Positions 18,984 to 56,984 of a stretch of DNA of 64,000 bases are shown in pieces. Positions within the stretch are counted from its first letter, which is position 1. The number at the start of each line of letters is the position of its first letter. Origin of the DNA: Antedon mediterranea (lineage: Eukaryota > Animalia > Echinodermata); the NCBI RefSeq assembly GCF_964355755.1, contig NC_092677.1, positions 19,428,101 through 19,492,100 of the forward strand, read 5' to 3'. The notes under the pieces were generated by a model. That model had not been told where the DNA came from and did not search any database. It was given only the letters and a program-made list of their open reading frames with translations. Made by a program: the position numbers and the translations under genes.

Positions 18984-18989
18984 TTGAGT

Positions 18990-29068: not shown

Positions 29069-31291
29069 TTATTGTAATGTAATATACGTATGTAATTCAA
29101 CATCATCATAATTAGAGTGCTCGTTATTACAAAGGGTTGGTATGCTGGTTTCATATTCTGCTTCTGCTGATTTATTTATTATTTTCGCTGGACAACTCAT
29201 ATCTCCCCGATTGGTAATTTTAATTGCTGTGTCATTCACTACCGGTACCCTGTTATTCTTTTGAGACCTGTAATAAATGTATATAATACAATATCATGAA
29301 GTTAGGGTTTTATATGGCTCTATAACCGACAACAAATGGAAGAGAAAAAGAACAAATTGAAGTGGAAATTGAAGTGTTTAAAACAAATAATGATTTCAAA
29401 TACTAAACGTAACATCCTAATTGCGCAGATGTTGTTTATTTGAATGAGTCACAAGTAAATTACCCAAAGACATCAGCAATCACGGTGCAATACTAACAAT
29501 ACCCAAAGCTCTGTCTACACTATCAAACTAACAAAAAATGTTATGTGGCCATATGGACATATCACTACCATATTTAGGCACATCACACTTTTTTTTGTCA
29601 AACTAGTTTGCTAGTGTAGACAGAGCTTTAGTTTTTTATATCAACATAATATAAATGTACAAACCTGCGATAACAGAATACACTTAGAATAATCACCAAT
29701 ATGATGATAACAAGAATAATTATTACAACCAATATGTAAACTGGCAATTCAGCAGATGAATCTGAACTTGGTGTTGATCCATTTGGTCTTTGAACTTTCC
29801 GTTGTTTGGTTAATGCTGTGTCAGAGGTTATTGGTGATCCTTCGGTTACTAAGTTACGCAAATAAAAACGATTCGTTCATCTATTTGATAAATACATTTC
29901 ATATAAACACAAAAATGCTATCTACCAAATACAAAAATAACAAACATAAACCCTCAGAATTTTGTAACAATTATTACATGTAACACCATTATCATCGTAC
30001 ATGCATAAATTTTTATAATGTAATTACCATCTGCTGGTGTGGAACTAATGTTAGCGCAGTCAGGTACGTTTTCTGGTTGAAGACACTGATCAGAAGTCTC
30101 GTCGTAGGCCAATCCACTAGGACATGGCTGAACTGTACTACCTCCATTTACACAGGCCACATAGACAGAACAGTTGGTCGGATGAGCATAATTACCATCA
30201 GATCTCTGATTACACACGTCATCGGGATCTGTAAAACAATCACTTTGACCATCAGATCTCGGATCACACAGATCATCGGGATCTGTAAAACAATCACATT
30301 GGCTATCAATGGTAATATGAACAACACATTTCCGTAAAGTATGAAATAAATGATCATATCTTCAGAAATGATTATGGTCTTCATCATAGCCATGTGTATT
30401 TACCATCTGCTGGTGTGGAACTAATGTTAGCGCAGTCAGGTACGTTTTCTGGTTGAAGGCACTGATTAGAAGTCTCATCGTAGGCCAATCCGTTAGGACA
30501 TGGCTGAATTATACTTCGTCCATTTGAACAGGCCACATAGACAGAACAGTTGGTCGGATGAGCATAATTACCATCAGATCTCAGATCACACACGTCATCG
30601 GGATCTGTAAAACAATCACATTGGCTATCAATGGTAATATGAACAACACATTTCCGTAAAGTATGAAATAAATGATCATATCTTCAGAAATAATTATGGT
30701 CTTCATCATAGCCATGTATAGTTACCATCTGCTGGTGTGGAACTAATGTTAGCGCAGTCAGGTACGTTTTCTGGTTGAAGGCACTGATTAGAAGTCTCAT
30801 CGTAGGCCAATCCATTAGGACATGGCTGAATTATGCTTCGTCCACTTGAACAGACCACATAGACAGAACAGTTGGTCGGATGAGCATAATTACCATCAGT
30901 TCTCAGATCACACACGTCATCGGGATCTGTAAAACAATCACATTGACCATCAGATCTCGGATCACACAGATCATCGGGATCTGTAAAACAATCACATTGG
31001 CTATCAATGGTAATAATATGAACAACACATTTCCGTAAAGTATGAAATAAATCATCATATCTTCAGAAATAATTATGGTCTTCATCATAGCCATGTGTAG
31101 TTACCATCTGCTGGTGTGGAACTAATGTTAGCGCAGTCAGGTACGTTTTCTGGTTGAAGGCACTGATTAGAAATCTCATCGTAGGCCAATCCATTAGGAC
31201 ATGGCTGAATTATACCTCGTCCACTTGAACAGGCCACATAGCCAGAACAGTTGGCCGGATGAGCATAATTATCATCAGATCTCTGATCACA
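29069..31291 (-). CDS. Single-pass receptor: four CBM14 (peritrophin-A chitin-binding) exons, Ser/Thr stalk plus TM exon, Tyr-motif cytoplasmic exon
   Basis: 201-bp phase-1 exons 30726-30926, 30404-30604, 30028-30228 and interrupted 31105-31291 (C-x4-DG-x-YAHP-x-NC-x2-YV-x-C...CP-x-GLAYD-x5-C...C); stalk/TM exon 29665-29848; tail exon 29069-29267 translating to ...EYETS...SNYDDVELHTYITLQ*; all GT-AG. Start exon not identified. Confidence 0.85.
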
Positions 31292-31671
31292 TAGTCCAAG
31301 AGCATTAGTTCATAAGTATAGGCAGACTCGGACATTTCTGGTAACAAGCTAATTTTTTCAGGAAAGGTCCAGAACTATGATTGGAATATCATACTAAAAG
31401 TCCCGAAAAATCCTCCTTGTGCTCGCCGAGAAATCCAAGATGGCGTCCAAAATGGCTGCCATTTTAATTAGTCTATAACTATGTAACCGCTTGTCATAGA
31501 GTATTGATTTTGGTGTCAAATAGTTCACATTATATACATTCCTATTTGCTGTAACAGAAAATTTTGTCAAAAAATGGCCGCTACTACAGTTTCTGGTAGT
31601 TTGACCTTTAACCTGGTCTTATCATATCTCGGTAATGGTTTTTCATAGAGAATTGAGATTAGGCCCAAATT

Positions 31672-32628
31672 TAGTCTGGGTTCCAGACGGAGTTTTGTCT
31701 TAATATTAGTTAAAAGATAAATATTTTGGCACATATGGCGTTTCATACGTATACTACTTGATTTTGGATACTCCGTCTGGGGAAACACGCACAAGTCACG
31801 TGGTTTGACACCAAGAATTCTTGGTGCATACGATTATCCGGTTGACTAGTTTCAGCTGCATGCGATTGGCTACTCTCTCGTACACCGTTTAAATATTCAT
31901 ATTTAAGAATTTCAAAGACTCAACAAATAAGATGATGCGCATGCGCTATGTTACGTTTAGACAATGTGTACTTGGGTACATTTATGAAAGTTCTGAAGGC
32001 TAGAAATTATTTTATATGCCTAGTAGTCTGGTAAACATTTGATGGGATCTTTGAAACATGAAAACTCGTCTTGATATATGATAGGCTAGCTTCTCCGCAA
32101 ATCAAACATTGAATGGATCATTTATTACGCGGAGATAATTTTGATTTAATTCCCACCCAGACCCTGTCCTGTTCTGTGTGTGGTGGTGTAGCCCTGTTGT
32201 GTGCCGGTGGTATGTAGGCCTACTTCATTGGCGTTTTATTTGGCAGGTCATACGTGCGAGTTGAGTAGGACCTACGAAAGAGGCCTAGGCCAAGGACTAA
32301 ACAATTAATAAACAAAACAACTTGGCATTACTATTTTATATTTCAACAGTCTCGATCGTACATTAAGCACTGGTAGGCCTACGTACTCGATCTCTTTCAT
32401 TTTGAAACAAAATGATCATTGGTTGATTCGAAATCCATATTTACATACCGCCCGCCCCATATAGCCAAATACGGTATGATAACCTACGTCATTCTTATCA
32501 TAATGTTTGCGGTCTGCAAATCGATTTCTATACGTGTTTCACAAGTCTGTATTTTCAGACAAAAATCGCGGTCGAAATAAAAACAAATAAATAAAAAAAA
32601 AAGATAATACAGACTTGGGGCAAGTCTA
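31672..32628. mobile_element. AcademH-like non-autonomous element nested in the left arm, 9-bp TSD GCCCAAATT
   Basis: TAG...CTA ends, each with its own hairpin (GTCTGG-GTT-CCAGAC; AGACTTG-GGG-CAAGTCT); perfect 9-bp duplication at 31663-31671 and 32629-32637; the right arm shows the empty site. Confidence 0.85.
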
Positions 32629-33130
32629 GCCCAAATTGTTCAGAACATGCATATTTATATTTGGTGTAATAAAATATTTTATCCCAAAATGACTGGAAGT
32701 GAGGTTATTGACCTCTTATTGACATATTCAAATATCTTTTACCGTATCTCAGGAAATATTTGTCGTAGGTCATAACTTTTGGTGTCAAATTGTTTGGAAC
32801 ATATACATTTCTATTTAGTCTAATACAACAGTTTCCCTTAAAATGCTCGGAAGTAAGTTAATTTATTGAAAATTAAAAAAATCAAAGAGCTGCATAGGCA
32901 GAGTATATATGAATACTGTAGATAAAATGAAAATCAAAGTTTTAACTCTGCCTTCAACTCTTCTCTGTGGTTCGGGCATACCACATCATCAGGTAAAGTG
33001 AATTGTTACAAAAAGAAAATATAAAGTCAATAACTTAAAAGAACAACTGTCAGTGGCTAATCAAAGTTGGTTAAGTAACCAAAAGACAATTGGCAAATAC
33101 CCTTTATCTGCAATGTTTAGATTAGAATTT

Positions 33131-33627
33131 TAAAAGCGACTCTATAGCTCACTATGTCGGTCGGTAAACACTAACTCATATAAATATTTTTTCACTATTT
33201 TGACACTGGATATTAATACTTGGAGGCAAGTATAAATGTTTTTAAACATTTTTCAACATTTTTTAACATTTTCAGTAATTTCGGTCGGTTGGTCAGTCGG
33301 TTAACACTAACTCATATTCATATTTTTTCGTTATTTTGATACTGGATAATAACACTTGGAGGGAAATATAAATGTTTTTAAACATTGTTCAACATTTTTT
33401 AACATTTTCAGCAATTTCAGTTGGTCGGTTGGTAAACACTAACTCATATTCATATTTGTTCGTTATTTTGACACTGGATATTAATACTTGGAGGCAAATA
33501 TAAATGTTTTTAAAAATTGTTAAACATTTTTTTAACATTTTCAGCAATTTCGGTCGGTTGGTTGGTCGGTCAGTCAGTAAACAATAACTCAAATTTGCAC
33601 ACGCGACTGCAGCCATGTTGACTTTGT
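33131..33627 (+). repeat. Helentron/HINE-like element with internal approx. 125-bp tandem repeats
   Basis: GCGACTCTATAG-x-TCACTATGTCGGTC head and GCACACGCGACT end shared with 56801-56906; 3-4 tandem units containing GGTC/GGTT microsatellite. Confidence 0.6.
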
Positions 33628-33806
33628 AAAAATAATCCATTTGAAACATTTCTTGTTTTAAATGTTCGTTATATGGTTTATTTATGATAAAAAGAGAATG
33701 TACCCTAGGTATTTCGCGTGAAACGCTCTTTACTCGGCATGCATATACTTTTTTTTTTCAGATTCAGATTTGTTTTGGTCCTTGCGGAAATCCATGAAAA
33801 ATAGAT

Positions 33807-33878
33807 AGGAAGACCCGGGCAATGACCCGGTACCTCCCACATGCTAAGTGAGCGCTCTACCATTTGATCTAGTCCACC
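33807..33878 (-). pseudogene. tRNA-Ala(AGC)-like pseudogene inside the transposon
   Basis: GGTGGACTAGATCAAATGGTAGAGCGCTCACTTAGCATGTGGGAGGTACCGGGTCATTGCCCGGGTCTTCCT: recognisable D arm and AGC anticodon arm, degenerate T loop and mismatched acceptor stem. Confidence 0.7.
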
Positions 33879-35767
33879 AGTTACATATTTAACTGTTTAA
33901 AGAAAAAATTATTGCCATATGCCCTATAGGATTTATTATATATTGAAAATATGCAAAATAAGGGTCTTTAAATCACTGTAACATTGATCAGCAGCATTCT
34001 GTTACAGTCATTCATCATCTGATGTTGCATCTTCAACATCTTGGTGTTTGTTGCTTCTTTCACATCATTATCTTCATGTTCATCTGTATGGATGCCGTTG
34101 CATATTTGCCATAAAAAGTTATGATGTTAATTTGTTGTCATCTTTAAACAGTTAAAAATGTCTAGTCTGGGCTTCCCGGTTAGAGAACATTCAAGAGTGC
34201 ATTCTCTTTTAAAACGAGGAATGACCTGATTTCAGGTTCCAAAATGCATTATTTTTACAAATAAAATGGTGTTTAACATTTGTTTTTGACAATCCAGAGC
34301 AAACACTATGTACATAGTGTTTGCCAATGCAATGTATTTCCATGCGAAATGTATATGACCTGAAAATTTCATTCTCAAAGTATCATAAAGTCTATACATT
34401 TCCTAAATTACATAAAAGTTATACTTCTTCTATGAACAAAAATAATTATCGAAATTCCTATAAAATTTCTGAAAATATGAAGACAAAAGCATTAATTCGT
34501 GTATAACGCGAGTTACAGACGAATAAAGCATTTAAAATGTATTCATGACATCTAAATATTATTGGTGAAATTTTGTAGCAATAACTTTTCAACCATAGCT
34601 AGTATGGAAATTTCAATTAACGTGTCTCTTTTTTTGGTCATGTCCATTTTTTGTAACAAGAGTTACCGATATATTCTTTGTTCTATCGAAATTAAATAAA
34701 TGATTATTTTGGTTTTTTCTTTTCTAGTATAGTTCATACCCAATGTAACACTTGTTTGTAACAATTCACTTTACCTGATTATGTGCTATGCCCGAACCAT
34801 GGAGAAGAGTTGAAGGCAGAGTTAAAACTTTGATTTTCATTTTTATCTACAGTATTCATATACTCTGCCTATGCAGCTCTTTGATTTTTTTTAATTTTCA
34901 ATAAATTAACTTACTTCCGAGCATTTTAGGGGAAACTGTTGTATTAGACTAAATAGAAATGTATATGTTCCAAACAATTTGACACCAAAAGTTACGGCCT
35001 ACGACAAATATTTCCTGAGATACGGTAAAAGATATTTGAATAGGTCAATAAGAGGTCAATAACCTCACTTCCAGTCATTTTGAGATAAAATATTTTATTA
35101 CACCAAATATAAATATGCATGTTCTGAACAATTTGGGCCTAATCTCAATTCTCTATGACAAGCCATTACCGAGATATGATAAGACCAGGTCAAAGGTCAA
35201 ACTACCAGAAACTGTAGTAGTGGCCATTTTTTGACAAAATTTTCTGTTAGAGCAAATAGGAATCAATATACTGTGAACTATTTAACACCAAAATCAATGC
35301 TAAAATGGCAGCCATTTTGGACGCCATCTTGGATTTCTCGGAGAGCACAAGGAGGATTTTTCGGGACTTTTACTATGATGTTCCAATCATAGTTCTGGAC
35401 CTTTCCTGAAAAAAATTAGCTTGTTACCAGAAATGTCCGAGACAAACCCTAATGCTCCTGGACTAATAGGTCATTAACATCTGCAAAGACTGTGTATTTT
35501 AAAAGACTACAACAAACAAGTGAAAGATCTTCACGTTTTCTTTATTTATTTGTTTCAGTGTACATACACCAAATGTATAATAATGCATATAGCTGTAACA
35601 TAAGAGGTAAGAGGTTTCAAACGTGAAAACTAAAATAATGAAATAAATAGTAAAATAAATAAAATTAGATTACCACATCATTATTACCAATGCTCGTATT
35701 ATGAATTAATAATTTTTTCATATTTTCTGATGCATTTCTTCATCTCTCAGCTGGATTGTATTCAATC

Positions 35768-36085: not shown

Positions 36086-37123
36086 ATCTCAAGAAGACGG
36101 TCGGTCATGTTTCGACAATTATGTGTAAACCATCAGTCATTAGGAAATAATCGTCATTATTGGTACGATACTAAATAAGTAATTTACATTCTACAGATGT
36201 CAAAATATAACATCCATAGGCCGGTTTAGAGGGTACCAAGGGACTCTTGCCATTATAGAAAGTGCACAAATGGACAAAATAGAGGCTCTTAGGAAAGGTT
36301 TTTTTCCTGGTTAGGACCTCAGAACCCCACAATCATAGATTCGCCCTTAACATTTAATCAAATTCAATTCATCTTTAAATACAATTAAAAAAAAAATCAG
36401 AAAATCATACTACCTTGACCATAAACATATTTCGGCTTACAAGTAACTATAAAGAAAATACTTATAATAAATGACCACATATTAGATTACTAAAAACTGC
36501 TACATGTATTAGTTGAGAGAATTCTTTATGCATACTGAATATGATTGGTAGTATGACCAGTGAGTTGTACAACAACAATGAATATTCATTTTTCTTACAC
36601 GAATGATATGTTATTCATTGAAAACAGGAAAACAAATGCTCTATGCTCCGGATTCATTAAAGTGTATAGGCTCATTATTCATCTGATGATGTTTTTCTTT
36701 CGTAATATAGGCAATGTTTATGCATATCCTCACGAAAGATATTTAAACATACAGACTACGATTAACCTATTTTTCGTAGTTTGATGTAAAGTAGGAAATA
36801 ATAAAAAGCACTGTGAACCTTTCCAATCGGGATTTACAGTAGCCTATTGTTATTTTTACATGTTAATGTTAAAATTCGTTAAATAGTCTGGACAATAATT
36901 TACTGTACAATAGTTAAACACACAAACAATATTACTCCAACGTATGTTAACTATCTTTTCATCTTTCTTCTTTTTGAATATATAATACCGTAACAATTAA
37001 ATTATTTTGAAATGATTGTCATTGTACATTTAATCTGAAATGCAGAAAAAAAAATATTGTTAAAATAAACTAGTTATTAGTTTATTAGTGTTATCTTAAT
37101 TATATAATATAATTATGTATTAC

Positions 37124-39560
37124 CCTTATTTATATTGAAATTGTGTATTGCCAAAGTTGTCACTCCAAGACATTTAGCTATTTTAGGATCAGTTGTTGTA
37201 CCAGCAACTTTGAGTTTTGTTATTGTTTGTTTATTTCTCCTGAAGAAATCCATAAATATATTGTACTTTGTAGCATTAGAGAAGATGGATTATAATAAAA
37301 CCATGTTACCTGTACATTGTTATCAACACGATGACTACCAGCACGACGAGTACAACAATGATAGGAAGGGTGATAGTCATGTTCTTTAAATCTGAAAATA
37401 TGAAAGTACGTTGTCAGCATGTGACCACCAATCAAATCTGATTTTTAGAGAATTGCTTAGAAATGTAGTAAACTGCATACATGTAGTAAATTGTCAAACC
37501 CTTTTGGGTACATGGAAATAAACATGGTCGTTACCAGAAGGGTTACAGAGGAACACAGAGAAGATTTATTTCAAAGATAGGCCTTACGAATTTTCACAAA
37601 ATGTTCAATTTATATTACATACATTTCTCGCCACATTGCATTCCTGAATATCCCGCCTTACAAGTGCATTGGTAAAGAGCTATTCCGGCGAATACATTCA
37701 CTATTCCTGGAGCATGACATGGTGGCACAAACTATGAAATACAACCTTAATCAACTATCACAATTTCATAAAAACTAATCTGTTGTTCTTCTTTATATCA
37801 TAATTCACATCACGGATCACCATATTCACAATCATCATTATCTAACTATCCCACAAAATCGATACCGGTAATATATTATAGTTTCCTAACAATCGAAATA
37901 TTATGGTTGATTTTAATGTACCATCTATGGTGCACTGATTTCCAGAAAATCCCGTGACACACTCATAAACGTAGCCGTATGCCACTGGAACACATGTTCC
38001 TGAATTATAACAGGGATCACTTGCACATGCTAAAAATGCATTAACCATATGGATGATGTTGACAACTAAACGCAATGGATGTAACTTTTTGTGTGTGTAA
38101 AGTATTAATTATAAATAACAATTATAAAGATGTTAATTTTAATAATTGTTATGGAAGATTAAGTTACTTTAATTTATAAACTATATAGAGGGCGCTATCT
38201 TCTCCTTCTAATTAAATTGCATTATTTGAGTGCAATTTGCATACACTACTGGGTAGAATATTAGTTGAAAATGCCAGGCCAACTTACCGTAAACTTCGCA
38301 ATCGTGACCTACATATCCGATTTGACAGGCGCATGAAGACCCAGTTTCACCTCTGATACATGTTGACCCTTCCTGACACGTATTGTTGGAGCAAACAAAA
38401 AACAACACTATTGCGTGAGTTTTATGTAAATATCCAAATATAACTATAATAAAGCTGTTCTCATCAAAATTTACTTTACAGATGCTTGTTTGTTGATTTA
38501 GATGTGACGGTAATAATTCCAGCTTTTGGAAATTAGAAGAATAAACACTTTAGTTTAAACTTATCGATTTTTAACATCTTAAATAAAACTAGGACACTCA
38601 TAATTGTAAATCGCCAAAACAAGATACGTATTTCTTTAATAGACGATAACTGTTCGTTGTTCAGGTAACTCGATATCTTCTATCAGCAAAATAATAGTTC
38701 GGATCTTTAACTTAGATATTCAAAAAGTTCCGAAAAACAAGTTAAAGCTTATAATAAAATATGTAAGCTCTACCAAATGTGGTTGCCACAACTTCATTTA
38801 AAAGTGGAAGGTTTGCACCATAAATAGAACATGATTGTGACAATACAAACATTCAGGGCACCTGAAATACACTGCAAGAGAACTTGTTGTATTGATATGA
38901 AATATTATTGAAATATTTTAAGAATGATTGCAGTTTACCATCATATTGACACCTTGTTCCAAAATAACCAACTCACAGTGACAAGTGTACCGACCTCTAG
39001 CGCATAGTCCATAATTAAGGCATGGGTTAGGCTCACACGCTGCAGAAAAAAAAATGAAGTTTACTAAAGATCTTAAATGAAAATATATTCATTCTATTTA
39101 TGCTGCTTAGGGCTGTAGTAGGTACTTACAATCAACTTGGCACATTTATCCTGAAAAACAAATACCACAGCTACAATTAAAACTACTACCAGGACCTCGA
39201 ATACAAGTACCATTATTGGTACATGGGTTTGAAGCACATGCTAATAGAAATAAAACTTGTGATTCATTAACTGGTAAGTTGTATGACATTCTTTAATTAT
39301 TATAACTTATATACAGTAGGTATGTGGTTGGGCGTACATTCTTCCTACAAGATGCTCCCTATACCACTGAATTAGGGAATAAATAAGATAACCTAGACTA
39401 AGCTGAATATTATAACAATAACAATATAATATTGTTGGAATATGTGTGTAACGGAGTCTCTATGCCAATATTTTGAAACACCATTATATGCTGTAGATAA
39501 CAATATCTTGTTATCCATCATGCTCGCATATTCCTCCAGAATAGCCAATATTGCAGTCGA
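37124..39560 (-). pseudogene. Pseudogenised paralog of the EGF-repeat TM receptor
   Basis: Exons collinear with the 44.5-51.6 kb gene: 39130-39240 (in-frame TAA), 38939-39039 (frameshift), 38288-38395 (acceptor TG instead of AG), 37922-38029, 37623-37731 (2-bp deletion), TM 37310-37391, tail exon 37124-37239. Confidence 0.85.
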
Positions 39561-39564
39561 CTAA

Positions 39565-40050
39565 AATTGACTTGCTGCAACCACTGGTTGCCAAGATACA
39601 AGTACCTATTTGTGTTTGTTCATATAACCCTTGACCCTGACCCTTTGACCTTTTGTAACATTTTTCAAAATGTGCAACAAATAACAAAATGTATATTGCG
39701 AACAATTGAAGACCCAATTCAAGTGTCTACGACCAGAACTTACGGAGATACATACATGCCCTGTGTAGTGGGTCAAAGGTCAGAAATAGCATTTCCGGTC
39801 ATTTTTGACTAAAATTAGACTGCATATAAATATATACCTTCTGATCAATTTGAGACCAAAATTACCTTTCTGTGACCAGTGGTTGTTGAGATTTAAGGAC
39901 CTATTGGTGTTTGGTGTTATAACGTTTCACCCTGACCTTTTGACCTTTCGCCACAATTTCAAAATGTGTAACCAAGCCAAAATTGATTGTTTGACCACCC
40001 TAAACCAATTTCTTAAGTCAAATTCTCTGGACCTCAAAGTGCATACGAAA
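39565..40050. repeat. Probable non-autonomous DNA-transposon remnant truncating an EGF exon
   Basis: Recurrent TGACCTTT/TGACCCC motifs and two similar subunits (about 39585-39680 and 39880-39975); the EGF exon at 39516-39560 stops at its edge. Family not recognised. Confidence 0.4.
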
Positions 40051-42325: not shown

Positions 42326-42498
42326 ACATCCATGACACATCATTCGGTGCTCTAATGGAACATGGATAAAAGCTATTACGGAATCCATTTATGCGGGAGG
42401 TGATTAATCGGAAGCGTCTGCCGCTCCTAAGAACAGGGGATGGGTTGGGATGATTGGGTCATTGATTACAATACAATACGAATACGTTTATTCATCAA

Positions 42499-43198: not shown

Positions 43199-43590
43199 CC
43201 ATCATGCTCGCATATTCCTCCAGAATAGCCAGTCGCAACGGTATTCACTACCTGGACCTCGATCACAATTACGAAAATGTAAACACGGATTGGGAACACA
43301 CGATTACAAGACGAAAAAAGTAATGCCTTATTATTTTGTTCTACCATGGAGCTATAAAATTAGATAGCTTCATAGTTCTACTACTAAAACACGTAAAATA
43401 AAAGGATAACAAATCAATAATCACTATATTTTCAATTGATATCATTCGTATCCAGCTTTCTCTGTTGTTAAAACAACCATGATGATGAAATTACATGATT
43501 TTTTGTTATTGTGACTTCAAAATTAACTATAGTAATGTAATTACCATCAATTACGCAATTCAGACCGGAATAACCAACATCACAATGATC
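43199..43590 (-). pseudogene. Two damaged EGF exons (about 43199-43303 and 43545-43590)
   Basis: CVPNPCLHFRNCDRGPGSEYRC with deletion and lost GT donor; partial CDVGYSGLNCVIDG cut by a duplication junction. Confidence 0.7.
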
Positions 43591-44522: not shown

Positions 44523-47500
44523 TTATTTACTCAACGGTTTCAAATCAGTATATGTTTGTTCCACTGATAAATGAATGTGAAGATCTTGATATTCAGGACT
44601 AACCCTCTTTCCAGACTTGGACAGTGGTGGTAGCGCTGCAACATTACTAATAGTTGAAATAGCAACATTTTCATAAGTAGCCATATTCATTCCTGTAGTA
44701 GGCATATCGTTCATTCGTTTGTTCTTCATGTAAACATACGACCTATATAAAATGTGTTTGTAGCTTGTCATGATTATAATTGTCGTAGAAGAAAAGTGAT
44801 TTCATAATTTTGTTTAAAGCCACCAAGCAATAAAGCTACCAAGCAATAAAGCTAAAATCAATACGATAAAAACTGTAAAGATTAGAAAGTACACGAGGGT
44901 GCCACAAGTACGTATTCATTACTGTAGTAGGCCTATAGTTCATTCATGGGTGCCACAGATTGATCCAATTGATACAATATAAATTAGTATATTAAAATAT
45001 TACTCTAGTAAAATTAATAGTATATTGTACATAAACAATACCTGAAAGTGAAATATCAATTACCTGTAAATGATGACTGCCAGCACGACGAGTACAACAA
45101 TGATAGGAAAAGTGATTATCATAGTTTTTAAATCTTCAAATGAAGTAGAATACAATTGAACTAAAGTGTACGCATTAAATCCGTTACTTGAAATTGCCGG
45201 CCACACAGGCACAGAGAAAAACTAAAGAGTTTTTTCGAAAACACTATACTTAAACAGAAATAACATGTTAAGCATTTTCTATTACTTACATTTCTCGCCA
45301 CATAGCGTTCCTGAATACCCTGCCTCACAAGTGCATTGGTAGAAAGAGCTATTCTGGCGAACACATGCACCATTGTTAGAGCATGATACGTTGGCACAAA
45401 CTAAGAAATACAGTATTAATAAAATACAAATTATTATGTTTCCATGTATTATCTTTATGTAAGATAATAATGAGTAGTACAACCCATAATCACCTTATTG
45501 TATAATCATTTAATTATTTTTTTTTTTTTTTTTTTATTTCATCATATAATACATTACAAAGGAAAAACATAATCAAATAAAAAATTAAAATAAAAAGCAA
45601 CAAACAAAAACAACAAAGATATCCATCTAACAAATTAAATAAAGGTTCATAAAAATTATTCTACTCTATAAACCATTTTATATTTGATTTATAAATTCTT
45701 CTAATTTTATCCATTTTCTATTAAAAATACTGTCCTCAAAATTCTGATGATAAATAAATTTTTCTGTTTCATAAAACCTTTTTAACTCGTTCATAACCAT
45801 TCTGATAGTTGGCTTACATTTAACTAGTTTACATTTATAAATAAATGATTTTACAATTAGAATAATTGCATTAATGGCTTTTAAATTAAAAAACTGATGC
45901 GCATCTTGGTATCCGAAAATTATGCTCTCTTTACTAAAAATAAATTGCACTCCAGTTTTTTCTGAAATTTTTTCCTGGAGGAGGTTCCATATCCTTTTTA
46001 CTATTGGAAAATTACAGAACAAATGCTGAATGGTTTCAATTTTACCATCTCCAAATGAGCACATTGAAGTTTCTTTTATATTCATTTTAAATAATTGTTC
46101 ATTTGTTGCAATTATTCTATTTACAATTTTATATTGAAAATATATTAAAGCAATATTCATTGTACACGTATGTGGAGCTAGGTAGATTGTTTTCCATTGT
46201 TCGTTATTGAATACAAATTTATTTTCTGCCCATTTCTTTTGTGCTTTCCATGATTTAAACATTGAGTTATTTAAAACATCATAAAAAATACGACATCCCT
46301 TTCTTTGTTGAAAGAGTACTTTTATGTGAAATGGAATATCTGGCAAAACTGTTTTTTTAATTTCACATATCATTAAATTGTTAAATTTTTCCCTAAGAAG
46401 CCTTTTTAATCCTATTAATTTTATATAATTTATCTTAATACCATAGGTATCTTCGACTTCTTTTTTATTCATAAATTGCCCATTGCTGTTAAACAAATCA
46501 TTAACAAACAAAATACCTGCTTTTTCCCAATTTCCATATCTTATACATTCGTTGCCTATTCTTATTACTTCATTATTCCAAATTTGCATTCGTAATAGCT
46601 CGTCAACAGACTTTGGATAATGAATAGAAATAAAATTACTCCATGCATCTATTACCTCTTTCCAGAAGAGAATTTTAACATTATCTCTAATGCTGGACAG
46701 ACGTTTACAATTCGTTTCAAGTTGCATAGAGTTAGACAAATTTGTTATGTACTTAAATAGCTTAAATATTGGGTTGTCTTCGGATTTATTCTACGCAACC
46801 AAGTTATTTTTAATGACATAAAAAAAAAGTTCAAATCTACCATTCTTAATCCACCATGTAAGTAATCACTTTTCATCTGATGCCGGTTTATTTTATCAGG
46901 TTTGTTTTGCCAAATAAAACGAAAAAATAAATTATTAAGACGTACTACGTATTCATTTGATGGGTTCGGTAAGGACATGATCATATGAATGAGTTTTGGT
47001 AACAAGAGTGATTTAATAATAGTTATTTTACCAATTACTGTCAAGTTTCTTTTAGACCATTGGTTTATCATACGCTCTATCGTTAAAAACACTCTTTCAT
47101 AGTTTACATTAATCATTTGAACTGCATCTAATGAAAAGTCAATACCTAAAATTGAAAATATGGCATTGCCTATCCAGTTTATCTTTTTTCTTGTTTTTAA
47201 CCTTACATTGCTACCTCTCTTACTACCTATCCATACAACTTTTGTTTTTTCTTCATTTATTCTTAAACCGGAAATACTCTCGTATGTATCCAGTGTATCG
47301 AGTGTTGCATGCAGTGATGCTTCAGACCCATCAAGTATAATGGTAGTGTCGTCTGCATATTGAGATATTGTATATTCCTTATCTCTAATTTTAACTCCCT
47401 TAATTAGTTTGTTTTGCTTTATTAAATTATTCAATATTTCTGCACAAATTATAAAAATATATGGAGAAAGAGGGTCTCCTTGTCTACAGCCTCTTTCAAT

Positions 47501-50500
47501 TTTAAAACGATTTGACATAGCACCGTTAACATTAACTGAGGAATACATTTCCGAATAAAAAATTGTAATCCACCTTCTAATAGACTCGCCAAAGTTAAAC
47601 ATTTCCATGGCTCTATCAATGAATATATGTGAAACAGAGTCGAAGGCTTTTTCGAAGTCAATTAATAATAGCATACCGGGAATCTTTAACTGTTCACTAA
47701 GACATATAATGTCATTCATTAGTCTAATATTTTCGCCAATAAATCTATCTGGCATAAAACCGTTTTGCTCTCTACTTATAATATGACTTAATACATTCTT
47801 TATTCGATTAGCTATACATCCAGACGCTAACTTATAGGTGATGCTTAATAGTGATATAGGTCGCCAATTTTTTAGAAGGTCCCTTGGTTTATTCGGTTTA
47901 GGTATAAGCGTTATGATTCCAATTTGTTGAGATTGAGATAGTTTTCCGTTCTTATACACCCAATCGAGCATTCTAACTAAATAACCACTAATATTAATCC
48001 AGAAAAATTTAAAGAATTCGGCGGAGAAACCATCTTGTCCGGGACTTTTATTGTTTTTCATATTTTTAAGAACTTGTAATATTTCATCAATTGTTAATGG
48101 CCCTTCAATTTCCTCCTTTTGTTTTTGTGATAATTTTGTCATACTATTTTTTTCAAATATTGTTTTCATAGTTACAAGATCAATTTTAACGTCTTTGTTT
48201 TTGTACAATTTGTTATAATAACTTTCTACATTCTTTATAATTTGTTTATTATCAGTTATATCCTGACACATTTCCCTCCTAATTTTATTCAAACTTTTAT
48301 TTACAATCTTTTTTTTCTCCAAATTAAGGAAGAAAGAAGATGGTTTTTCCCCTTGTTCCACCAACTGAGCTCGCGATCTCAGCATGATCCCTTCAATTTT
48401 AACCATACGTAATTGTTGTAATTCAATCTTTATGGAATTTAGCTCTTCAATATTGTTGTCCATTTCTGGACCAATTTGAAGTTCATCCATCTTTCTTTCA
48501 ATTACATTAATTTTATCTTCTAATTCTTTTTCTCGCTTTTCATTTTCTTTTTTTAACCTTGAGGAGAACGAAATTGTTTTGCCTCTTATTCCTAAGAGCA
48601 ACATTTCAAAAAATAATGCATCATTAATAGAAAGGGACAAATCTGAGACTGGGATATCTTTAATTGTGTCTCTTTTGTATGGCGACGCAGCATATAGTTC
48701 TGTAATTGTTTGGATTTCTTTTTTAACTATTTTAACATATTCCTCATTTCTTAACAAGCTATTATTGAACTTCAATTAGGTGATTCTATCTTTTTCATTT
48801 AATTATGATCAATACTATACTATTCTAATAATAATATTATTGTGATGAAAGTTTACCATCTATGGTGCACTGATTTCCAGAAAATCCCGTGACACACTCA
48901 CAAACGTAGCCGTATGCCACTGGAACACATGTTCCTGAATTATAACAGGGATCACTTGCAGATGCTAAAATATTCAGTAATTATGTTTCAATTACTATTC
49001 AATCTCACAACTATATATATATATATATATAGGGCCTACATCAAATGCTCTGCTATTGGCATTAGAATTCACGGGAAGTAATAATAATAGAAAGTAATTT
49101 TATGTTTTACCATGTACAATGTAATGTCTTTGGAAACTCAGCATTAAAGCCCTCTTTGGCTTACTTGAGATTCCACGCATAAACAAAGACTTACCAAGAT
49201 TTTTAGTATGATCTTTAGTTTTTTCTTACTTTATGTGGAACAATAACAAATAAAAATGGAAATAATGTTTCAATAACCTGTTACCGTTTAAATGACAATA
49301 CGGGGCACTTTTTTTATGTAATTTTTGAGAATTGTAGTAAAATTTTCATACTTTTCAGGTGTACATTATCATCAACTGTTAATAAATTTGAACTTACCGT
49401 ACATCTCACAATAATCACCTACATATCCAATTTGACAGGCGCATGACGAACTAATTTGGCCCCTGATACACGTTGACCCTTTCTGACACGTGTTGTTGGC
49501 GCAAACTAAAGGGAAAAACACAGCACTATTTCGTGATTCTACGCGTTTCGTATACAAACTCATTATAGCAACATTATAGGCCGAAACCTTAGTAAAAGGT
49601 TCTCATCAAAATGTACTATAGTCTGTATTTTTAATTAGAAAATCAACATCGTAAGCAAAATTAACTTTAATATTTTCTACATCCACTAACTCACGTGGTT
49701 GCCACTTCAAGTGGAATGTCATACCATAACTACATGATTGGGACAGTAAAGGTAAACTAAGGTAGCTGCATGAGTTTAAGAGAACGTCTTTATACGGAGT
49801 TATACCATATTACATATTATATACATTATCATATTTTAAAACGTATTGCAGTTTACCATCATCTTGACACATTGTTCCAAAATAACCAACTCCACAAAAA
49901 CAAGTACTGTATACCGACTACCTGGACCTCTAGCGCATACTCCAAAATTAAGACATGGGTTAGGCTTACATGCTGAAGAAAATTGGAGACACAACAACAA
50001 TGTTACTACAGACATTATGTTTCTTCATTCATTATTGGAATTTCATTTTTGTATGATCTATTATTATTTTATACTGGGTAGCCTCTTCAGTCAAAGACTG
50101 TTCTCTCCGAGGTCCCAGTTATGATCAGTGGCTGCGTGTGGTAACCCCCTACTCGTCTCGAAAGATGTACTAGGTTCTGCACATGCACTGGACCTATTGT
50201 AACAGTATATAGACTCATTCTACCACCAGAACTATGGAGCATGGAACTCTTGCCGATGTTATGGCTACGTAATTACGGTTCCACTGTCTTATAGAAATTG
50301 TTTGACTTAAAATTATAAGTTAACGTTCAACAAATTCCAATAATCAATTTTAATTGATTTTCTTCTCGTAGGTACTTACCATCATGTTGGCACATTTCTC
50401 CTGAAAAACCAATACTACATCTGCAATTAAAGCCACTACCAGGACCCCGAATACATGTACCATTATTGGTACATGGGTTTGAAGCACATGCTATTAAAAG

Positions 50501-53500
50501 AACAGAGCTTACTTATTAAATCAACACAGATATTGTACAACAATAAACAACAACAATCCAAACTATACAAAAAATTTAACCGGTTTTAGAGTTTTTAATT
50601 TGAAACACTACAGTACTGCTTAAACGCTCCTAATACCACTCACATTGTTCATAATTTTAGATACATGTAGTGGCAAGATTCCTGTTCAAAAGAATTGTTC
50701 ATTGTGATTTGCATTGTTTTTTCATTAATTCTTTGCTTAATGTTGAACACCTTTATCTAAATTACTATAGAACAAAACTGTAATTGCACGGCGTAGCGTG
50801 TGGCAGTTCAGTTCTTTTTGCTATTTGAAACAGGCGGTTCGTAATGGTCATTGGTAGTACTGTAGTACTATACGAATTAATTAAAATGAAATCGTTCCCA
50901 AATGATTTGTCATTTGTTGCTGTCTACGTGAATTTTAGGTTGAATTGGTAACGTTGTTTGAAACGATTCCCATTGGCCCAAAGTGCCAGATGCAAATGTG
51001 AACTCAATGCTTTACTCATATTGCTGATATGAAATTATTATAGAATTGTGTTACTGAATGTGTTCATTGTGTAACAAGACAGGTATATTTAAGCCTAAAG
51101 TATTCTACTTTGGTCAATAAAATGTAGTAAACAATACCATCATGTTCGAAAGTTTCTCCAGAATAACCAATATCACAATTACAACGATATTCACTCACTG
51201 GAATTCGATCACAGGTACCAACATTTAAACATGGATTTGGAACGCATGCTTCAAATAAGAAAATAAATCAATTAAAAATTCTTTCTGCTAAATAATTAAT
51301 ACAATTTAAGATTAAAAACAATACTTTAGAATATATTAATATTAATACTACTATTAATACTACTACTATTAATTTTTCATCTGATATTATTCATATCCAG
51401 TTTTACTCTATCATTACTATGGTTGCAAAGGTAAGCTTGATTCATGATTTGTAACTTGTTTTTATTTTGTAACTTGTTTTTATTGTGTAACTTAAGGAAT
51501 AAATAAAATATAAATAAAATACCATCAATTTCGCAATTTTCTCCAGAATAACCGACTCCACAGTCACACGTATACTGACTTCCAGAACCCGATCGAACGC
51601 ACGTTCCAGAATTTAAGCATGGACTTGGTACACAAGCTAGAAGAGAGATAAGGCCTATAAGTTACTGTTAAATTAGTTTAATGATTAAGATTATCGGATG
51701 GTATTTTGACGAAAGTACATGACTAGGCATATAGTGCTAATACTATCTAATAAAATCTCTTAATACCAGATCCTTTTAATGAAAACTGCACGTGTTATCC
51801 TCAATCTAGAAAAAGACTACGTAGAAGTTGGTATTAAATATTATTTTAATATTACAGCATTTACTAAACGAGTCATCCTGTTTTTACTTAATCGCAATGT
51901 TTTACCATGTTCATTCACATGCGTGTTTATCGAATAGTGATGTTAGAGTTGAGTACCGGACTGTTTAACATTCACAAAACATTATTTATCATTCTTTAAA
52001 AATGGAATTCAATAAAAGAAACACTTACTGTTGAGGCTAGCCCGTTGTATTTGAAAGAGTTCTATCTATTCAATTCCAATGTTGTTGTTTATTGATGTTG
52101 TGTTTTTTTTTTGTATTTTAGTAGTATACTATAAATACCCTTTATGTTATGGATACGTTGTAAAAAGCTCCGTGGGGTATTTATAAGTTAACAACAAATT
52201 TGTATTGATATACTCTACTCTTTATAACATAGTTGATGAAGGGAACTTTAAACAAGTTGACAAAGGCTATATTGTATAATATTATTCTGTGTATTACAGA
52301 CTCATACGTCACCATCGTCTTGACGGCTAAGTCCATGAATATATTTATCTAGACATATTATGCACGACGGTCCACTGCTTTTTGATCTTACTACAAATTT
52401 CATTATAACAAAGATTTGGATTACAGGTTATATCAAACAAAATAATAATTGTATTATAACAACACCTGCCAATACCATTCAAAATAATATAATACACAAA
52501 TCAAACTTCTTACCGTCGTCACATGTGTATCCACTGCCCGGACCTCGAATACAACTTCCAGAATTATAACAAGGATGATTCGGACTAAAGGCTAAATAAT
52601 TATAATAATAACGGTTGACAATACTATAATACAGTGATTGCAGATAGTATGTACAATTAGTTAAGAACATGTTCCAATCCGTTTATCCGTTCCCCTACTG
52701 TAAGTGCAGTACCATATAACTCTACAACATTGCAAATGTACGAAAGCCATTACATTCCGTTGTTCAAACGAATTAGTAAACCGGCGTTTGAACGGATTAT
52801 ACACATTAAAACATACTTAAAATGGCACTTATAGGCTTTCGTAGACATGTGGAAGAACAATATTATTACCTCCGCCAAGGAGGTTATGTTTTCACCCCTG
52901 TATGTTTGTGTGTGTGTTTGTTTGTGTGTGTGTGTGTGTGTGGGTGTGTTTGTGTGTGTGTCTGTGAACAGCCTGGAGGCCACAGTTTTTATCCGATTCT
53001 AACCAAATTTGGACACAATGATCTATGCCCAAAAAGCTCGGACGAGTTCGAATTTGAGGGGGAAAGGTCATAGGTCAAGGTCACAACTAACAAAAAACTA
53101 TTTTACTGCCTATAGACCACAGTTTTGATCCGATTCTCACCAAACTTAGCCACAATGATCAATGACACATCATATAATTGTGGTTAAATTTTGAAGGGTC
53201 AGGGTCAAAGATCAAGGTTCACAAAAAAAAAAAGAAATTTAAAAAAAATAATTTAAAAAAAACCCCTCAGTGGGACTTGAACCAGCGATCTCAACTGTGA
53301 GAGGCTGGATACATAACCATTACACCACACTGTCATCCACAACTTCGTAGTGTGCAGTTAACATATTTACACTTAGAACTAATAAAAAAAAATGTAAAAA
53401 AAAAATATTCAGGGGGCATTTCATGTAGGGGAATTTTACAGTAGGCGGAGGTTTGTACTCTCGGAGTACCCTCTAGTTTACTATTTAATTACTGGATACA

Positions 53501-56500
53501 GCTCATACTGCTTTACCGTCTTTGACTACAATTTCCTGATTTATAACATGAGATGGTGGGACCAGCCTTAATCAAAGATTGTATCTACTCTATAACGACG
53601 TGCCAATAGAAATCAACTCGATCCTGAATATCCATCTGTGCAGTCACACGTATATTCACTTTATGGACCTCGAATACACATTTCAGAATTACAAGGATTC
53701 AGATTACATGCTATATAATTCAAATTTTACACTTATAATAATTGAGAATGCAAATAAGATAAAAAGTTCTAGCAACAACGTTTAACAATTATATTATAAA
53801 TTACAAAATAAACAAGTTACCGTCGGTTTGGCATCTAGTTTCTGAATATCCATCCCGACAGCCACATGTGTATCCACTGCCCGGACCTCGAATACAACGT
53901 CCAGAATTATAACAGGGATTCGGATTACAGACTAAATTTTAAATAATAGTGACAACGACTGAAAATACATTTAAATTTGTAAAAAGTATAGTAATTAAGA
54001 GTGTAAATAATGGTAAAAAGTTCTAAAAAACGTTTTACGATAATTATTATATTATAAATTACAAAATAAAACTTCTTACCGTCGTTTTGGCATCTAGTTC
54101 CTGTATATTCATGCCGACAGTCACATGTGTATCCACTGCTGCCCAAACCTCGAATACAACGTCCAGAATTATAACAAGGATTCGGACTACAGACTAAAAT
54201 AAAAAAATAGCAAAACAAAACAAAATTATAATTGTTAACGTCATCTGACATGGCATCTTTGTCACACGTGTATTATATTTGCTGGTCCTCGATTACAACT
54301 TCCAGGGTTCCGATTACAGTTTATAACATTCTACTAAATTTGTATTAGTTTTTGTCAGTGCAGTAAAGTAGGCTCTACTGTAAAATTGTACAGTCTTTTT
54401 ATGTTATAAAGAAATATTAACAAAACTGTAGATGATAAATTAATGCTACCCCCCACATGTAATTTTAAAGGGGTTAGTGGTTAAGGTAATTTTTCAAACA
54501 AAAATTAGAATTCAATTTAAATGCAATTTATTTATTATTATATTGTTTATATACTTGTTTATGCCGTCAATAAGTATAGTTAATTTATATTTGAAATATT
54601 CTGAATAATATTACCATCAACATCACAGGTTGGTCCTGAAAACCCCGGCTCACAGACGTTGCATTCGCAAGTTCTTGCAGTACGGCATGGACAAGAAGGT
54701 CCTGGGGCAGGAACTATTGGGACAAGGGAACAATCAGTAATCAAACATACATATTATTTATAAATACCACGGCACCATAGTTAATTATCTATTTTTGGTT
54801 CAATGCAACTATATACCCACCACTTTATTGGCTATTATTTCCACCTATAGCCTACCCGTGAATTCACGGCTAGCTATACAGATATAGTCTGAGCTTGTTG
54901 AGATTTACCAACCTACTAGGTCAGGTGGTCAGTGTCAGCTCGTGACTCCCAATTATTCCAATTTCCAGCTGAAAACTACCGTATTATTTTCCAACAAACC
55001 TTTTTTTGTAATCTTATATCTAACAATTTGTCCATTTCATGTTTGTTTTTTTTCAATTCAATATCAATAATTCCAGTTAATGAATTAATGTGTGTTATAT
55101 TCACCACATTAAAGCTAAAATAACATAAAATAACATACCAAATATCATCGTTGCTTTAAACAAAAGAAATAACGACTTTAATAACCAAGATCTCATATTG
55201 GGAATAAAGTGAGAGACAAACTATATGTATTCTTTCTACATTGATGACTGAATGAACATTGCTTGAATATACTATGATATTTTAAAGCAACCCTCTGTTA
55301 GTAACCAGTCATGTGTACTAATGATGCTTTATTGTATTTTATTTATTTACTTATTTATTTGGATGTACACCATTAGATAGGTGGCACACTTTTTTGGGGA
55401 TTTCGGTGGCACACGTACAAGTCTGCATATTTTAACATAAAAATAATAAACTATATAAAATACAAAAAAAAAACAACCCAAAATTACATACAAAAAATGT
55501 GTAAGGTAGAACATGGGTTCCATCGTTGGAAAGATGATCCTCCACTATTGAATATGAAAAAGTAAAGGCAATTTAATGAAAGTCTTTTTTGTAATGTAAG
55601 GTAATGTAAAGGTAGTCATACTGTGTTCAAATTCGTCCAGTTTCCACATCTGTATTCACACTTTTTCTGACAAAAGTCCAGCTTCCAATACGATATAATG
55701 AGAACAAACATAACTACATTTATAAACACATTCTTTCTTCTTTTTCAGCAATGCACAATGCTTGTATATAACTGAACATTTACTATATTGGTCAGATATT
55801 TGCCCTACTCTAACCCAAAGCTACTTCGCAGTAGAAGTAGTAACAATTATCATTACCGATATTATTCTAAAACAATAAATAAATATATTACATACAAAAA
55901 TTAACTAAGAATTTCCGATAAAGTCGTTTTTATAGAATTTTCAAATACAGTAGTAATTCTGGAAAACTATGGTACATACAATAGAAGTTACAACGATTTG
56001 TTGATCTAATTCTAGTTTCTTGTAAATGTCTATTGTTACTGTTTACACATTGAAATTTTGTTCAGCAGTATTTCTAATCAGTATCTGTTATTTTTTCCTA
56101 ATATTGCATTAACTTAGTAAGACAACATTGTATTGGATTACATAATAAGACATACGTGTAGTCGTGCTTAACATGCTAGATAACTCTCTTCTTCTGCTGG
56201 GGTGTGTTGACTGACTCTGGATTTTATCTTCTCTATTCTTGGGATATTATCTCGAGAGCTGCTGTTTTGGGAAGAGCTACCTATACAAATGCAAAATATA
56301 ATTATATTATGGATAAGCATACAATAACAAGGTATTTAATAACGATACAAACAGTCTCAACTTTAAGCGACAATAACCAATGCCTACAGTCATTATATAG
56401 GCCTACCCTCTTAACAACTGTATGTAAATGTGGCAAGTATAACAATCAAATTAATACGTGATATAAAGGGGCTTCCATAAATTGGGTATAATTTTCTCGT

Positions 56501-56984
56501 AAAATGCCAAGTTTTGCAAGATGCAACATCAAGAAATGTTATTACCAATATAAATAGGACCTACGGATGCAATTTATTAGGGTACGTTCTTATACCATGA
56601 TGAGGGTGATTTTTGACCGGACTATAACTTTAAGTTTAAATGAGGAATCTGCAGAATCCAAAAAGGTTTTACCGAGATCTTTACATTCCAATTACATACA
56701 GTTGTTAAAAAGGTATAATGACCGTTAATAGTTTATACAATTGTATTGACTTGACTTGTTGTTTGTTCACTTACCATGTATGGTGGAGTTTAAGAGTCGC
56801 ATTTTTAGTCACGTGGACGCGACTCTATAGTTCACTATGTCGGTCTGTCTGTCGGTCCGGTATCACTATGCGTTTTAGCACGCGACTTATGGCTGTTGGC
56901 CTTGTTACCATATGCACTGCTTTCATAATTGTCTTCTTCTTCCTCCTCCTCTTCCTCAACCTCATTGTGAGTAAGATTCTGCAG
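44523..56984 (-). CDS. Multi-EGF single-pass transmembrane receptor with Tyr-motif cytoplasmic tail
   Basis: Putative N-terminal exons 56909-56984 (acidic) and 56173-56280; Cys-rich 54615-54713; phase-1 EGF exons 54080-54193, 53821-53931, 51523-51636, 51138-51248, 50380-50490, 49398-49505, 48857-48964, 45290-45400; TM 45064-45133; tail 44523-44742 (YENV, YQDL, YTDL). Dead EGF exons near 53620-53712, 52513-52592, 52310-52430 and 49857-49972. Signal-peptide exon not found. Confidence 0.8.
45518..48794 (-). mobile_element. 5'-truncated L1-Tx1 LINE in an intron of the EGF receptor, 12-bp TSD
   Basis: ORFs 46745-48775 and 45678-46739 (NWRPISLL, DFEKAFDSV, GCRQGDPLSP, QYADDT); poly(A) at about 45518-45535; TCATTTAATTAT at 45506-45517 and 48795-48806. 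Confidence 0.93.
50065..50290 (-). mobile_element. Decayed copy of the tRNA-derived SINE
   Basis: Reverse-complement match to 35790-36070 with internal deletions. Confidence 0.75.
52863..53478 (+). mobile_element. Non-autonomous Helentron/HINE-like element containing a tRNA-like segment
   Basis: TTACCTCCGCCAAGGAGGT head, (TG)n microsatellite, subterminal inverted GGCGGAGGT, 3' hairpin GTACTCTCGGAGTAC and CTAGTT end; minus-strand A/B-box segment at about 53263-53330. Confidence 0.75.
56801..56906 (+). repeat. Short HINE-like element
   Basis: AGTCACGTG...CACGCGACT subterminal inverted repeats, GTCT/GTCG microsatellite; same family as 33131-33627. Confidence 0.55.

What the first reader, a model, noticed from the sequence alone, without database searches (positions are those of the whole stretch)
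29069..56984. Candidate paired immune/phagocytic receptor cluster: EGF and chitin-binding ectodomain cassettes with three alternative TM-plus-tail modules
Seen: on one strand, about 20 EGF exons and 5 CBM14 exons (intact or damaged); the intact ones are all symmetric phase 1/1, and three TM exons (45064, 37310, 29665) all start in phase 1 and end in phase 2 before distinct cytoplasmic exons. Established: EGF-repeat receptors with Tyr motifs (CED-1/Draper/MEGF10) mediate engulfment, and clustered activating/inhibitory receptor pairs with birth-and-death evolution typify immune loci. Inference: this is a fast-evolving pattern-recognition locus in which any ectodomain exon is frame-compatible with any TM module, so splicing or recombination could build mixed EGF/chitin-binding receptors with opposing signalling.
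Basis: partly seen in the sequence, partly recalled or inferred. Interest (0 to 1): 0.8.

Follow-up and report, generated by a model that had tools for sequence, protein, structure and literature searches.

The report
Feather-star chitin-domain receptor beside EGF receptors
A feather star carries, side by side, a transcribed gene for a membrane protein with chitin-binding-type domains and a likely inhibitory tyrosine tail, a predicted EGF-repeat receptor gene with a likely activating tail, and a broken copy of the latter; they are likely separate fast-evolving immune-type genes, not one mix-and-match gene.

Summary
Counts and phases hold: 20 EGF copies, 5 CBM14 copies, 3 TM exons in phase 1/2. 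The DNA is from the feather star Antedon mediterranea. It is better read as three units than as one cassette system. A: EGF exons, TM1, ITAM-like tail; an open 444-aa model, expression not shown. B: an 77-98% duplicate of A's 3' half, 7 of 8 EGF copies broken, no tyrosine tail found. C: CBM14 x4, stalk, TM3, ITIM-like tail; TM3 is spliced to its tail in another sample, and a CBM14 exon appears with exact exon ends in a related organism. Phase 1/1 is the norm for such modules, so frame compatibility is weak evidence. No EGF-CBM14 joint was listed, but the table was cut. One DNA rearrangement did put a CBM14 exon behind an EGF exon; both are broken. All CBM14 copies have Gln where chitotriosidase has its key Trp465, so chitin binding is doubtful. 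Not a CED-1/Draper member (no NPxY). The scan noted similar tyrosine-tail receptor clusters elsewhere in this genome, none with CBM14. Verdict: new variant of a known kind.

The parts
55139..55196 (-). Candidate signal-peptide exon of gene A (19 codons, ends phase 1); unproven
   Evidence: 3 such candidates in 9.3 kb against a shuffle mean of 1.0
48857..54713 (-). Gene A EGF exons. Open, phase 1/1: 54713-54615 (atypical), 54193-54080, 53931-53821, 52591-52514 (3 Cys), 51636-51523, 51248-51138 (5 Cys), 50490-50380, 49505-49398, 48964-48857 (5 Cys). Broken: 53710 (stop), 49972-49857 (116 nt, frameshift)
45520..48800 (-). 5'-truncated LINE, same strand as gene A, with poly-A and a target-site repeat of about 12 bp, in the intron before the last EGF exon; absent from the matching intron of unit B (ends approximate)
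   Evidence: RVT_1 E 2e-37; ends
45290..45400 (-). Membrane-proximal EGF exon of gene A, six Cys, phase 1/1
45064..45133 (-). TM1 exon, phase 1/2, no charged residue in the helix
44523..44742 (-). Predicted tail1 terminal exon, 72 aa: YENV and an ITAM-like YQDL-x9-YTDL; no ITIM, no NPxY; AATAAA at 44325
   Evidence: splicing not shown
43005..44333 (-). Segment X: start of unit B (half EGF exon at 43585, broken EGF exon at 43305); duplicated as X' at 42500-39344 (87-98% in pieces, with insertions)
42488..43002 (-). Segment Y: 95% copy of CBM4, its intron and the 5' part of the TM3 exon, joined behind an EGF exon; the CBM exon 42997-42793 has a 4-nt insertion and a Cys-to-Arg change
37623..39607 (-). 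Unit B EGF exons: 39607 (half), 39240 (stop), 39039 (frameshift), 38395 (acceptor lost), 38029-37922 (open, 5 Cys, 106 of 108 nt identical to 48964), 37731 (frameshift)
37310..37391 (-). TM2 exon, paralog of TM1, phase 1/2; tail unresolved, no tyrosine-motif candidate
36414..36480 (-). Candidate signal-peptide exon of gene C (22 codons, ends phase 1); unproven
   Evidence: chance of one such candidate 0.15
31105..35480 (-). First CBM14 exon, split by a 4.2-kb element with terminal inverted repeats (about 35465-31292); exon pieces about 35480-35466 and 31291-31105
30028..30982 (-). Three intact 201-nt CBM14 exons, phase 1/1 (30926-30726, 30604-30404, 30228-30028); 54-bp duplications give in-frame alternative acceptors at 30980 and 30282
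   Evidence: exon-exact contigs, records 9 and 18
29665..29848 (-). Ser/Thr/Pro-rich stalk plus TM3 exon, phase 1/2
   Evidence: spliced to tail3 in run X5 (record 17)
29069..29267 (-). Tail3 terminal exon, 65 aa: ITIM-like SNYDDV and terminal YITL; AATAAA at 29003

Best explanation
The region holds a spliced gene C for a single-pass protein with tandem CBM14 domains and an ITIM-like tail, next to a likely separate EGF-repeat gene A with an ITAM-like tail and a broken duplicate B of gene A; C likely dampens and A would likely trigger signalling in cells that sample foreign surfaces. Shown: exon anatomy, duplication, decay, splicing of TM3 to tail3. Inferred: separate promoters and signal peptides; Src-type phosphorylation of the tyrosines with SHP-type (C) or Syk-type (A) binding; an immune role. 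The ligand of C is likely not plain chitin bound the chitotriosidase way. Diversity likely arises at DNA level (tandem duplication, gene conversion, template-switch rearrangement, insertions, loss) plus skipping of symmetric exons within each gene, not by splicing EGF exons onto the CBM14 gene. Gene A may be impaired in this haplotype: two broken exons must be skipped and a same-strand LINE poly-A signal lies before TM1.
For: Run X5 (organism A, another sample) has one contig joining 29848-29663 to 29265-28997 across the 397-nt intron, while run X1 runs through the acceptor unspliced; run X10 (organism B) has a contig matching 30228-30028 exactly, 13 of 201 letters different. The NCBI model XP_071959518.1 has the same C architecture, 5'-partial. 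A and C have their own terminal exons and AATAAA; both models are open end to end in a script (444 and 350 aa). A/B exons are 77-98% alike while 5 of 6 intron pairs are within the shuffle range; pN/pS about 0.33 over 3 colinear exon pairs, Fisher p=0.002: B was under selection, then decayed. One pair is 106 of 108 identical, suggesting conversion. Motifs match published definitions; an ITAM arises in 2.3% of tail1 shuffles. Such clusters with pseudogenes are described in Hydractinia and Botryllus.
Against: An ITIM arises in 14.7% of tail3 shuffles, and tail1's ITAM fits only the loose 6-12 spacing, not 6-8. Neither tail has a clear homolog, so motif conservation is untested: stalk-TM3-tail3 finds 6 of 1.84 billion proteins, itself and 5 matches centred on the hydrophobic helix. 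Both signal-peptide exons are unproven. No tissue or challenge data. The joints table showed 15 of 608 joints, so chimeric splicing is not excluded. CBM copies show no excess of amino-acid change (pN below pS in 3 of 3 pairs).
Confidence: 0.58

Rival explanations
1. Gene C is a membrane-anchored peritrophin- or mucin-like surface or uptake protein; its tyrosine motifs are YxxPhi sorting signals for endocytosis (recalled knowledge), and its place next to EGF genes is an accident of a repeat-rich region.
For: NCBI names it chondroitin proteoglycan 2-like. Best solved relative is the gut protein EHEP, which lacks chitin binding and binds polyphenols. ITIM chance 14.7%. Atlas look-alikes of the stalk-TM-tail are generic single-pass proteins, all under 0.9. 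The window is rich in LINEs and DNA elements.
Against: Two unrelated tails in one cluster both end in paired Yxx[LIV] motifs with acidic residues before the tyrosines; 7 of 706 acceptors in the window give an open frame of 65 aa or more with two such motifs, and 2 of the 7 are these tails.
Confidence: 0.22
2. One reading: one transcription unit in which EGF or CBM14 exons are spliced to any of three TM-tail modules, giving mixed receptors with opposing signals.
For: All open exons are frame-compatible and on one strand. Unit B has no 5' end of its own in this assembly, so its open exon and TM2 could only be used from A's promoter. Tail switching by splicing is reported for Hydractinia Alr1A, Botryllus FcoR and Draper-II.
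Against: Phase 1-1 is general for mobile extracellular modules. Tail1 is a terminal exon with AATAAA between A and C. The listed exon joints and the NCBI model keep C separate. TM2 is a copy of TM1 without a tyrosine tail.
Confidence: 0.1
3. Only gene C is alive; A and B are both pseudogenes, so no activating/inhibitory pair exists today.
For: A has 2 broken and 3 Cys-deficient exons of 12, a LINE in its last EGF intron, and including exon 49972 stops the frame at residue 307.
Against: 10 of 12 A exons, TM1 and the 72-aa tail are still open with splice sites, against 1 of 8 in B.
Confidence: 0.25
4. The X-Y-X' arrangement that places a CBM14 exon behind an EGF exon is a haplotype-merging artefact of the assembly.
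For: The copies differ by about 2-5% over their long pieces, a range that allelic variation in marine invertebrates can reach (recalled).
Against: The window has no N; both junctions are precise, one with a short microhomology inside the TM3 exon; Y has its own lesions.
Confidence: 0.07

Closest known systems
Hydractinia Alr cluster and Botryllus FF/FcoR receptors (bioRxiv 10.1101/2022.03.25.485889, PMC12065747; passages)
   Same: Clustered type I membrane proteins, domain-per-exon ectodomains, single-exon tails with ITAM- or ITIM-like motifs, pseudogenes nearby.
   Different: Those use Ig and sushi domains and have genetic evidence for allorecognition; here the ectodomains are EGF and CBM14, and polymorphism and function are untested.
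CED-1/Draper/MEGF10 engulfment receptors (PMC8092387, PMC13076899; passages)
   Same: EGF-type repeats, one TM helix, YxxL/ITAM-like tail (gene A).
   Different: No NPxY in either tail; no EMI or NIM exon found; the repeats are plain 6-Cys EGF, 35-37 aa, one per exon; lineage-restricted rather than conserved.
Protochordate VCBPs (PMC2632668 abstract; others as search listing)
   Same: Chitin-binding domain in an immune-type gene cluster with copy-number change, pseudogenes and inverted repeats.
   Different: VCBPs are secreted Ig V-V-CBD proteins; gene C is membrane-bound with tandem CBM14 and a tyrosine tail.
Peritrophin-A/CBM14 proteins: EHEP (PDB 8in3), chitotriosidase ChBD (5hbf, 6so0), chitinase 5wvf
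   Same: Six-Cys CBM14 domain, CPxGL loop kept.
   Different: Gln at the Trp465-equivalent place in 5 of 5 copies; those proteins are soluble, without TM or tail.
Babylonia areolata XP_076452266.1 (P0079)
   Same: CBM14 and many EGF repeats in one chain, so the mixed architecture exists in nature.
   Different: A gastropod gene model whose only strong hydrophobic stretch is N-terminal; no TM or tail.

Membership tests
CED-1/Draper/MEGF10 | NPxY motif in the tail | tested here: not met
   0 matches in tail1 and tail3; feature from PMC8092387
CED-1/Draper/MEGF10 | N-terminal EMI domain and NIM repeat | tested here: inconclusive
   No EMI hit in the 10 EGF exons scanned and no other Cys-rich exon upstream on the minus strand by eye; gene A's 5' end is unproven
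CED-1/Draper/MEGF10 | ITAM or YxxL in the tail | tested here: met
   YQDL-x9-YTDL in tail1 fits the 6-12 spacing only
Paired activating/inhibitory receptors | Clustered genes with opposing tyrosine motifs | tested here: met
   ITAM-like tail1, ITIM-like tail3; shuffle chances 2.3% and 14.7%
Paired activating/inhibitory receptors | The two partners share a similar ectodomain (recalled definition) | tested here: not met
   A is EGF, C is CBM14; the true paralogs A and B share ectodomains but B has no signalling tail found
Paired activating/inhibitory receptors | Co-expression and opposing signalling in immune cells | not testable with these tools
   Only contigs of runs without tissue labels
CBM14/peritrophin-A domain | Six-Cys domain above the Pfam cut-off | tested here: met
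   49.5-63.9 bits against 22.1 in 5 of 5 copies
Chitin-binding CBM14 of chitotriosidase type | Aromatic residue equivalent to Trp465 | tested here: not met
   Gln follows C-L in all copies; Trp465 had the strongest effect on binding (PMC5459812). Other members bind by other residues (PMC10619976), so binding is not excluded
VCBP | Two Ig V domains plus one chitin-binding domain, secreted | tested here: not met
   P0001 has no Ig hit and has a TM helix
Combinatorial splicing locus | Transcripts joining alternative ectodomains to alternative tails | tested here: inconclusive

The most novel reading that the evidence does not exclude
Gene C is the first CBM14-ectodomain inhibitory immunoreceptor: a crinoid receptor that reads a glycan or polyphenol surface with retuned chitin-binding domains and signals through an ITIM, balanced by an EGF-ITAM neighbour, in a locus where DNA rearrangement is actively moving CBM14 exons into EGF genes, so that some individuals carry working EGF-CBM14 hybrids.
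Probability: 0.2. Interest if true: 0.72.

Novelty: new variant of a known kind. Interest (0 to 1): 0.42.

Why it matters
Crinoid immunity is almost undescribed. A membrane CBM14 protein with an ITIM-like tail was not found in five literature searches (listings only, open-access library only). If it signals, it adds a lectin-type ectodomain to the ITAM/ITIM receptor repertoire of invertebrate deuterostomes. The locus also holds a datable snapshot of class 1-1 exon shuffling (a CBM14 exon joined into an EGF gene). Without binding or signalling data it remains one more lineage-specific decaying receptor cluster.

Tried and rejected
No whole genome is held, so no genome-wide paralog search. No RNA holder was listed on record; X5 is a guessed RNA run and X10 is of unknown kind; they are read as RNA only from exon-exact contigs. 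Cover of TM1 and tail1 was near zero in X5 (0.08 and 0.2) and low in X10: no evidence either way. Tail1 search: 0 of 23 candidates at E<=10 (weak). EGF-profile search: the best 120 of 528 hits are generic EGF-repeat proteins, the best identity to a window exon is 66%; the gene A model would score 415 bits against a list that ends at 227, so it seems unannotated, but candidates are chosen by shared words. CBM3 search found only P0001 among 8 candidates. A by-eye likeness between tail1 and the DNA behind TM2 failed the shuffle test. The fish and anemone hits to TM3-tail3 are helix-driven and not taken as homologs. Atlas searches gave no usable hit. Read depth was not used as copy number. The stretch at 56984 and a short open frame at 56280-56168 could not be tied to the cluster. 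No fold or complex prediction was run.

Full report
Source. The window is 64,000 bases, about 33% GC, without N. A CBM14 exon matches at 100% a 413-aa NCBI model, XP_071959518.1, 'chondroitin proteoglycan 2-like, partial [Antedon mediterranea]', so this is feather-star DNA. No whole genome was available.

Observation. A DNA profile from 9 open EGF exons finds 20 minus-strand copies at E<1e-4; the reversed-window control gives at best E=2. Pfam confirms EGF in 9 of 10 exons scanned and CBM_14 in 5 of 5. Open exons are 3n long and phase 1/1; the three TM exons are phase 1/2. The third cytoplasmic module is not: behind TM2, 0 of 14 phase-2 acceptor candidates give a Yxx[ILV] motif and no tail1 paralog is detectable (57 of 300 shuffles score as well).

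Unit A (55196-44523). Twelve EGF copies, 10 open (7 with six Cys, 2 with five, 1 with three) and 2 broken, then TM1 and a 72-aa terminal exon with AATAAA 198 bases on. A model with a candidate signal exon and 9 EGF exons is open for 444 aa; including the frameshifted exon 49972 stops it at residue 307. A 5'-truncated LINE with poly-A lies on the same strand before the last EGF exon and could end transcripts early (inference). Splicing of A was not shown.

Unit B (43585-37310). A colinear duplicate of A's 3' half: seven exon pairs are 77-98% alike, and 5 of 6 intron pairs are within the shuffle range. Over 3 colinear pairs there are 14 synonymous changes in 67 sites and 17 non-synonymous in 248 (pN/pS about 0.33, p=0.002), so both copies were long under selection. 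Now 7 of 8 B copies are broken. One pair is 106 of 108 identical, which suggests recent conversion. Organism B holds four pieces of this unit as DNA; one contig has 192 letters that do not fit upstream of 43578, a hint that B's 5' part differs or survives there (record 31).

Unit C (36480?-29069). Four CBM14 exons, a stalk-TM exon and a 65-aa tail. The first CBM exon is split by a 4.2-kb inverted-repeat element; its 5' piece with the acceptor lies at 35480. The NCBI model starts inside the element's end, which explains 'partial'. Skipping that exon leaves an open 350-aa model from a candidate signal exon (chance of such a candidate 0.15). In run X5 (organism A, another sample) one contig joins TM3 to tail3 across the 397-nt intron and ends at 28997, at the AATAAA; another ends exactly at the CBM3 donor. 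In run X10 (organism B) a contig matches CBM4 exactly from 30228 to 30028, with 30 further letters that do not fit. Runs X1 and X6 run through these splice sites unspliced; X6 shows TM3 and tail3 in organism B at 11 and 12 differences over about 350 and 210 letters. Gene C is thus transcribed and shared with a relative. Which letters differ was not shown, so motif conservation is untested.

Shuffling. Segment 44333-43005 (X) recurs at 42500-39344, and between them lies a 95% copy (Y) of CBM4, its intron and part of TM3. This puts a CBM14 exon behind an EGF exon across a hybrid intron, with precise junctions. Both exons are broken. So DNA-level mixing has happened here and left no working hybrid in this haplotype.

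Frame compatibility. [quoted passage not shown] A TM exon behind such a module must start in phase 1. The pattern is expected for any two such neighbours.

Tails. With ITAM = YxxI/L-x6-12-YxxI/L and ITIM = S/I/V/LxYxxI/V/L (bioRxiv 10.1101/2022.03.25.485889, passages; its supplements were not seen), tail1 has an ITAM and no ITIM, tail3 an ITIM and no ITAM; neither has NPxY. Shuffles give an ITAM in 2.3% (tail1) and an ITIM in 14.7% (tail3). The stalk-TM3-tail3 query finds 6 proteins in 1.84 billion: itself and 5 helix-driven matches. Opposing signalling is thus a fair inference from motifs only.

Ligand. The domains align without gaps around the fifth Cys to chitinase 5wvf and chitotriosidase 6so0; the Trp after it is Gln in all five copies. 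Trp465 substitution had the strongest effect on chitin binding in chitotriosidase (PMC5459812, passages). The best solved relative, EHEP (E 1e-15), lacks chitin binding, and binding residues are not conserved across the family (PMC10619976, passages). Chitin sensing is therefore open and somewhat unlikely in the classical mode.

Known kinds. It works like the Hydractinia Alr and Botryllus FcoR clusters (passages) but with other ectodomains. It is not a CED-1/Draper/MEGF10 member (NPxY absent; PMC8092387 and PMC13076899, passages), not a VCBP (PMC2632668, abstract and outline), and not a classical receptor pair, as A and C do not share an ectodomain. CBM14 with EGF in one chain exists in a gastropod model. 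Literature searches for a CBM14 receptor with such a tail gave 2, 0, 15 and 0 papers and 22 on crinoid immunity terms (one listed); none describes it by title or abstract start; these were seen as listings only. Earlier notes of this scan report Ig- and Tie-type tyrosine-tail clusters and a chitinase-like kinase in this genome (unchecked); none matched this locus by sequence, words or place.

Verdict. A real birth-and-death receptor cluster. Its best new element is an expressed CBM14-TM-ITIM-like gene. The combinatorial splicing idea is unsupported, though not excluded. New variant of a known kind; interest 0.42.

Noticed in passing
window 4124-7165: C2H2 zinc-finger array on the + strand; a 471-aa open frame at 5106-6521 with many fingers.
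   Followed up: partly
window 15550-22714: Two LINE-type elements on the + strand: a 966-aa endonuclease-RT frame and a 604+567-aa pair.
   Followed up: partly
window 1588-2304: DDE_Tnp_4 (Harbinger-type) transposase fragment.
   Followed up: partly
window 24893-25636: GIY-YIG endonuclease frame on the - strand, likely a Penelope-like element remnant (family name recalled).
   Followed up: no
window 31292-35465: The inverted-repeat element in CBM1 has arms of about 700 bp, a nested insert (31672-32628) whose ends match 58526-58364, and a 136-bp tandem repeat inside. It may be polymorphic.
   Followed up: partly
window 56168-56280: A 37-codon frame behind a good acceptor ends in a tyrosine-bearing stop-terminated stretch; possibly a terminal exon of an upstream unit, unique in the window.
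   Followed up: partly
window 30194-30308 and 30892-31006: 54-bp duplications of the CBM acceptor region give two in-frame acceptors; the NCBI model uses the longer form for CBM4, organism B's contig the shorter.
   Followed up: partly
window 62233-63165: Nested inverted repeats with 15-40-bp tandem units, a foldback-like element.
   Followed up: no
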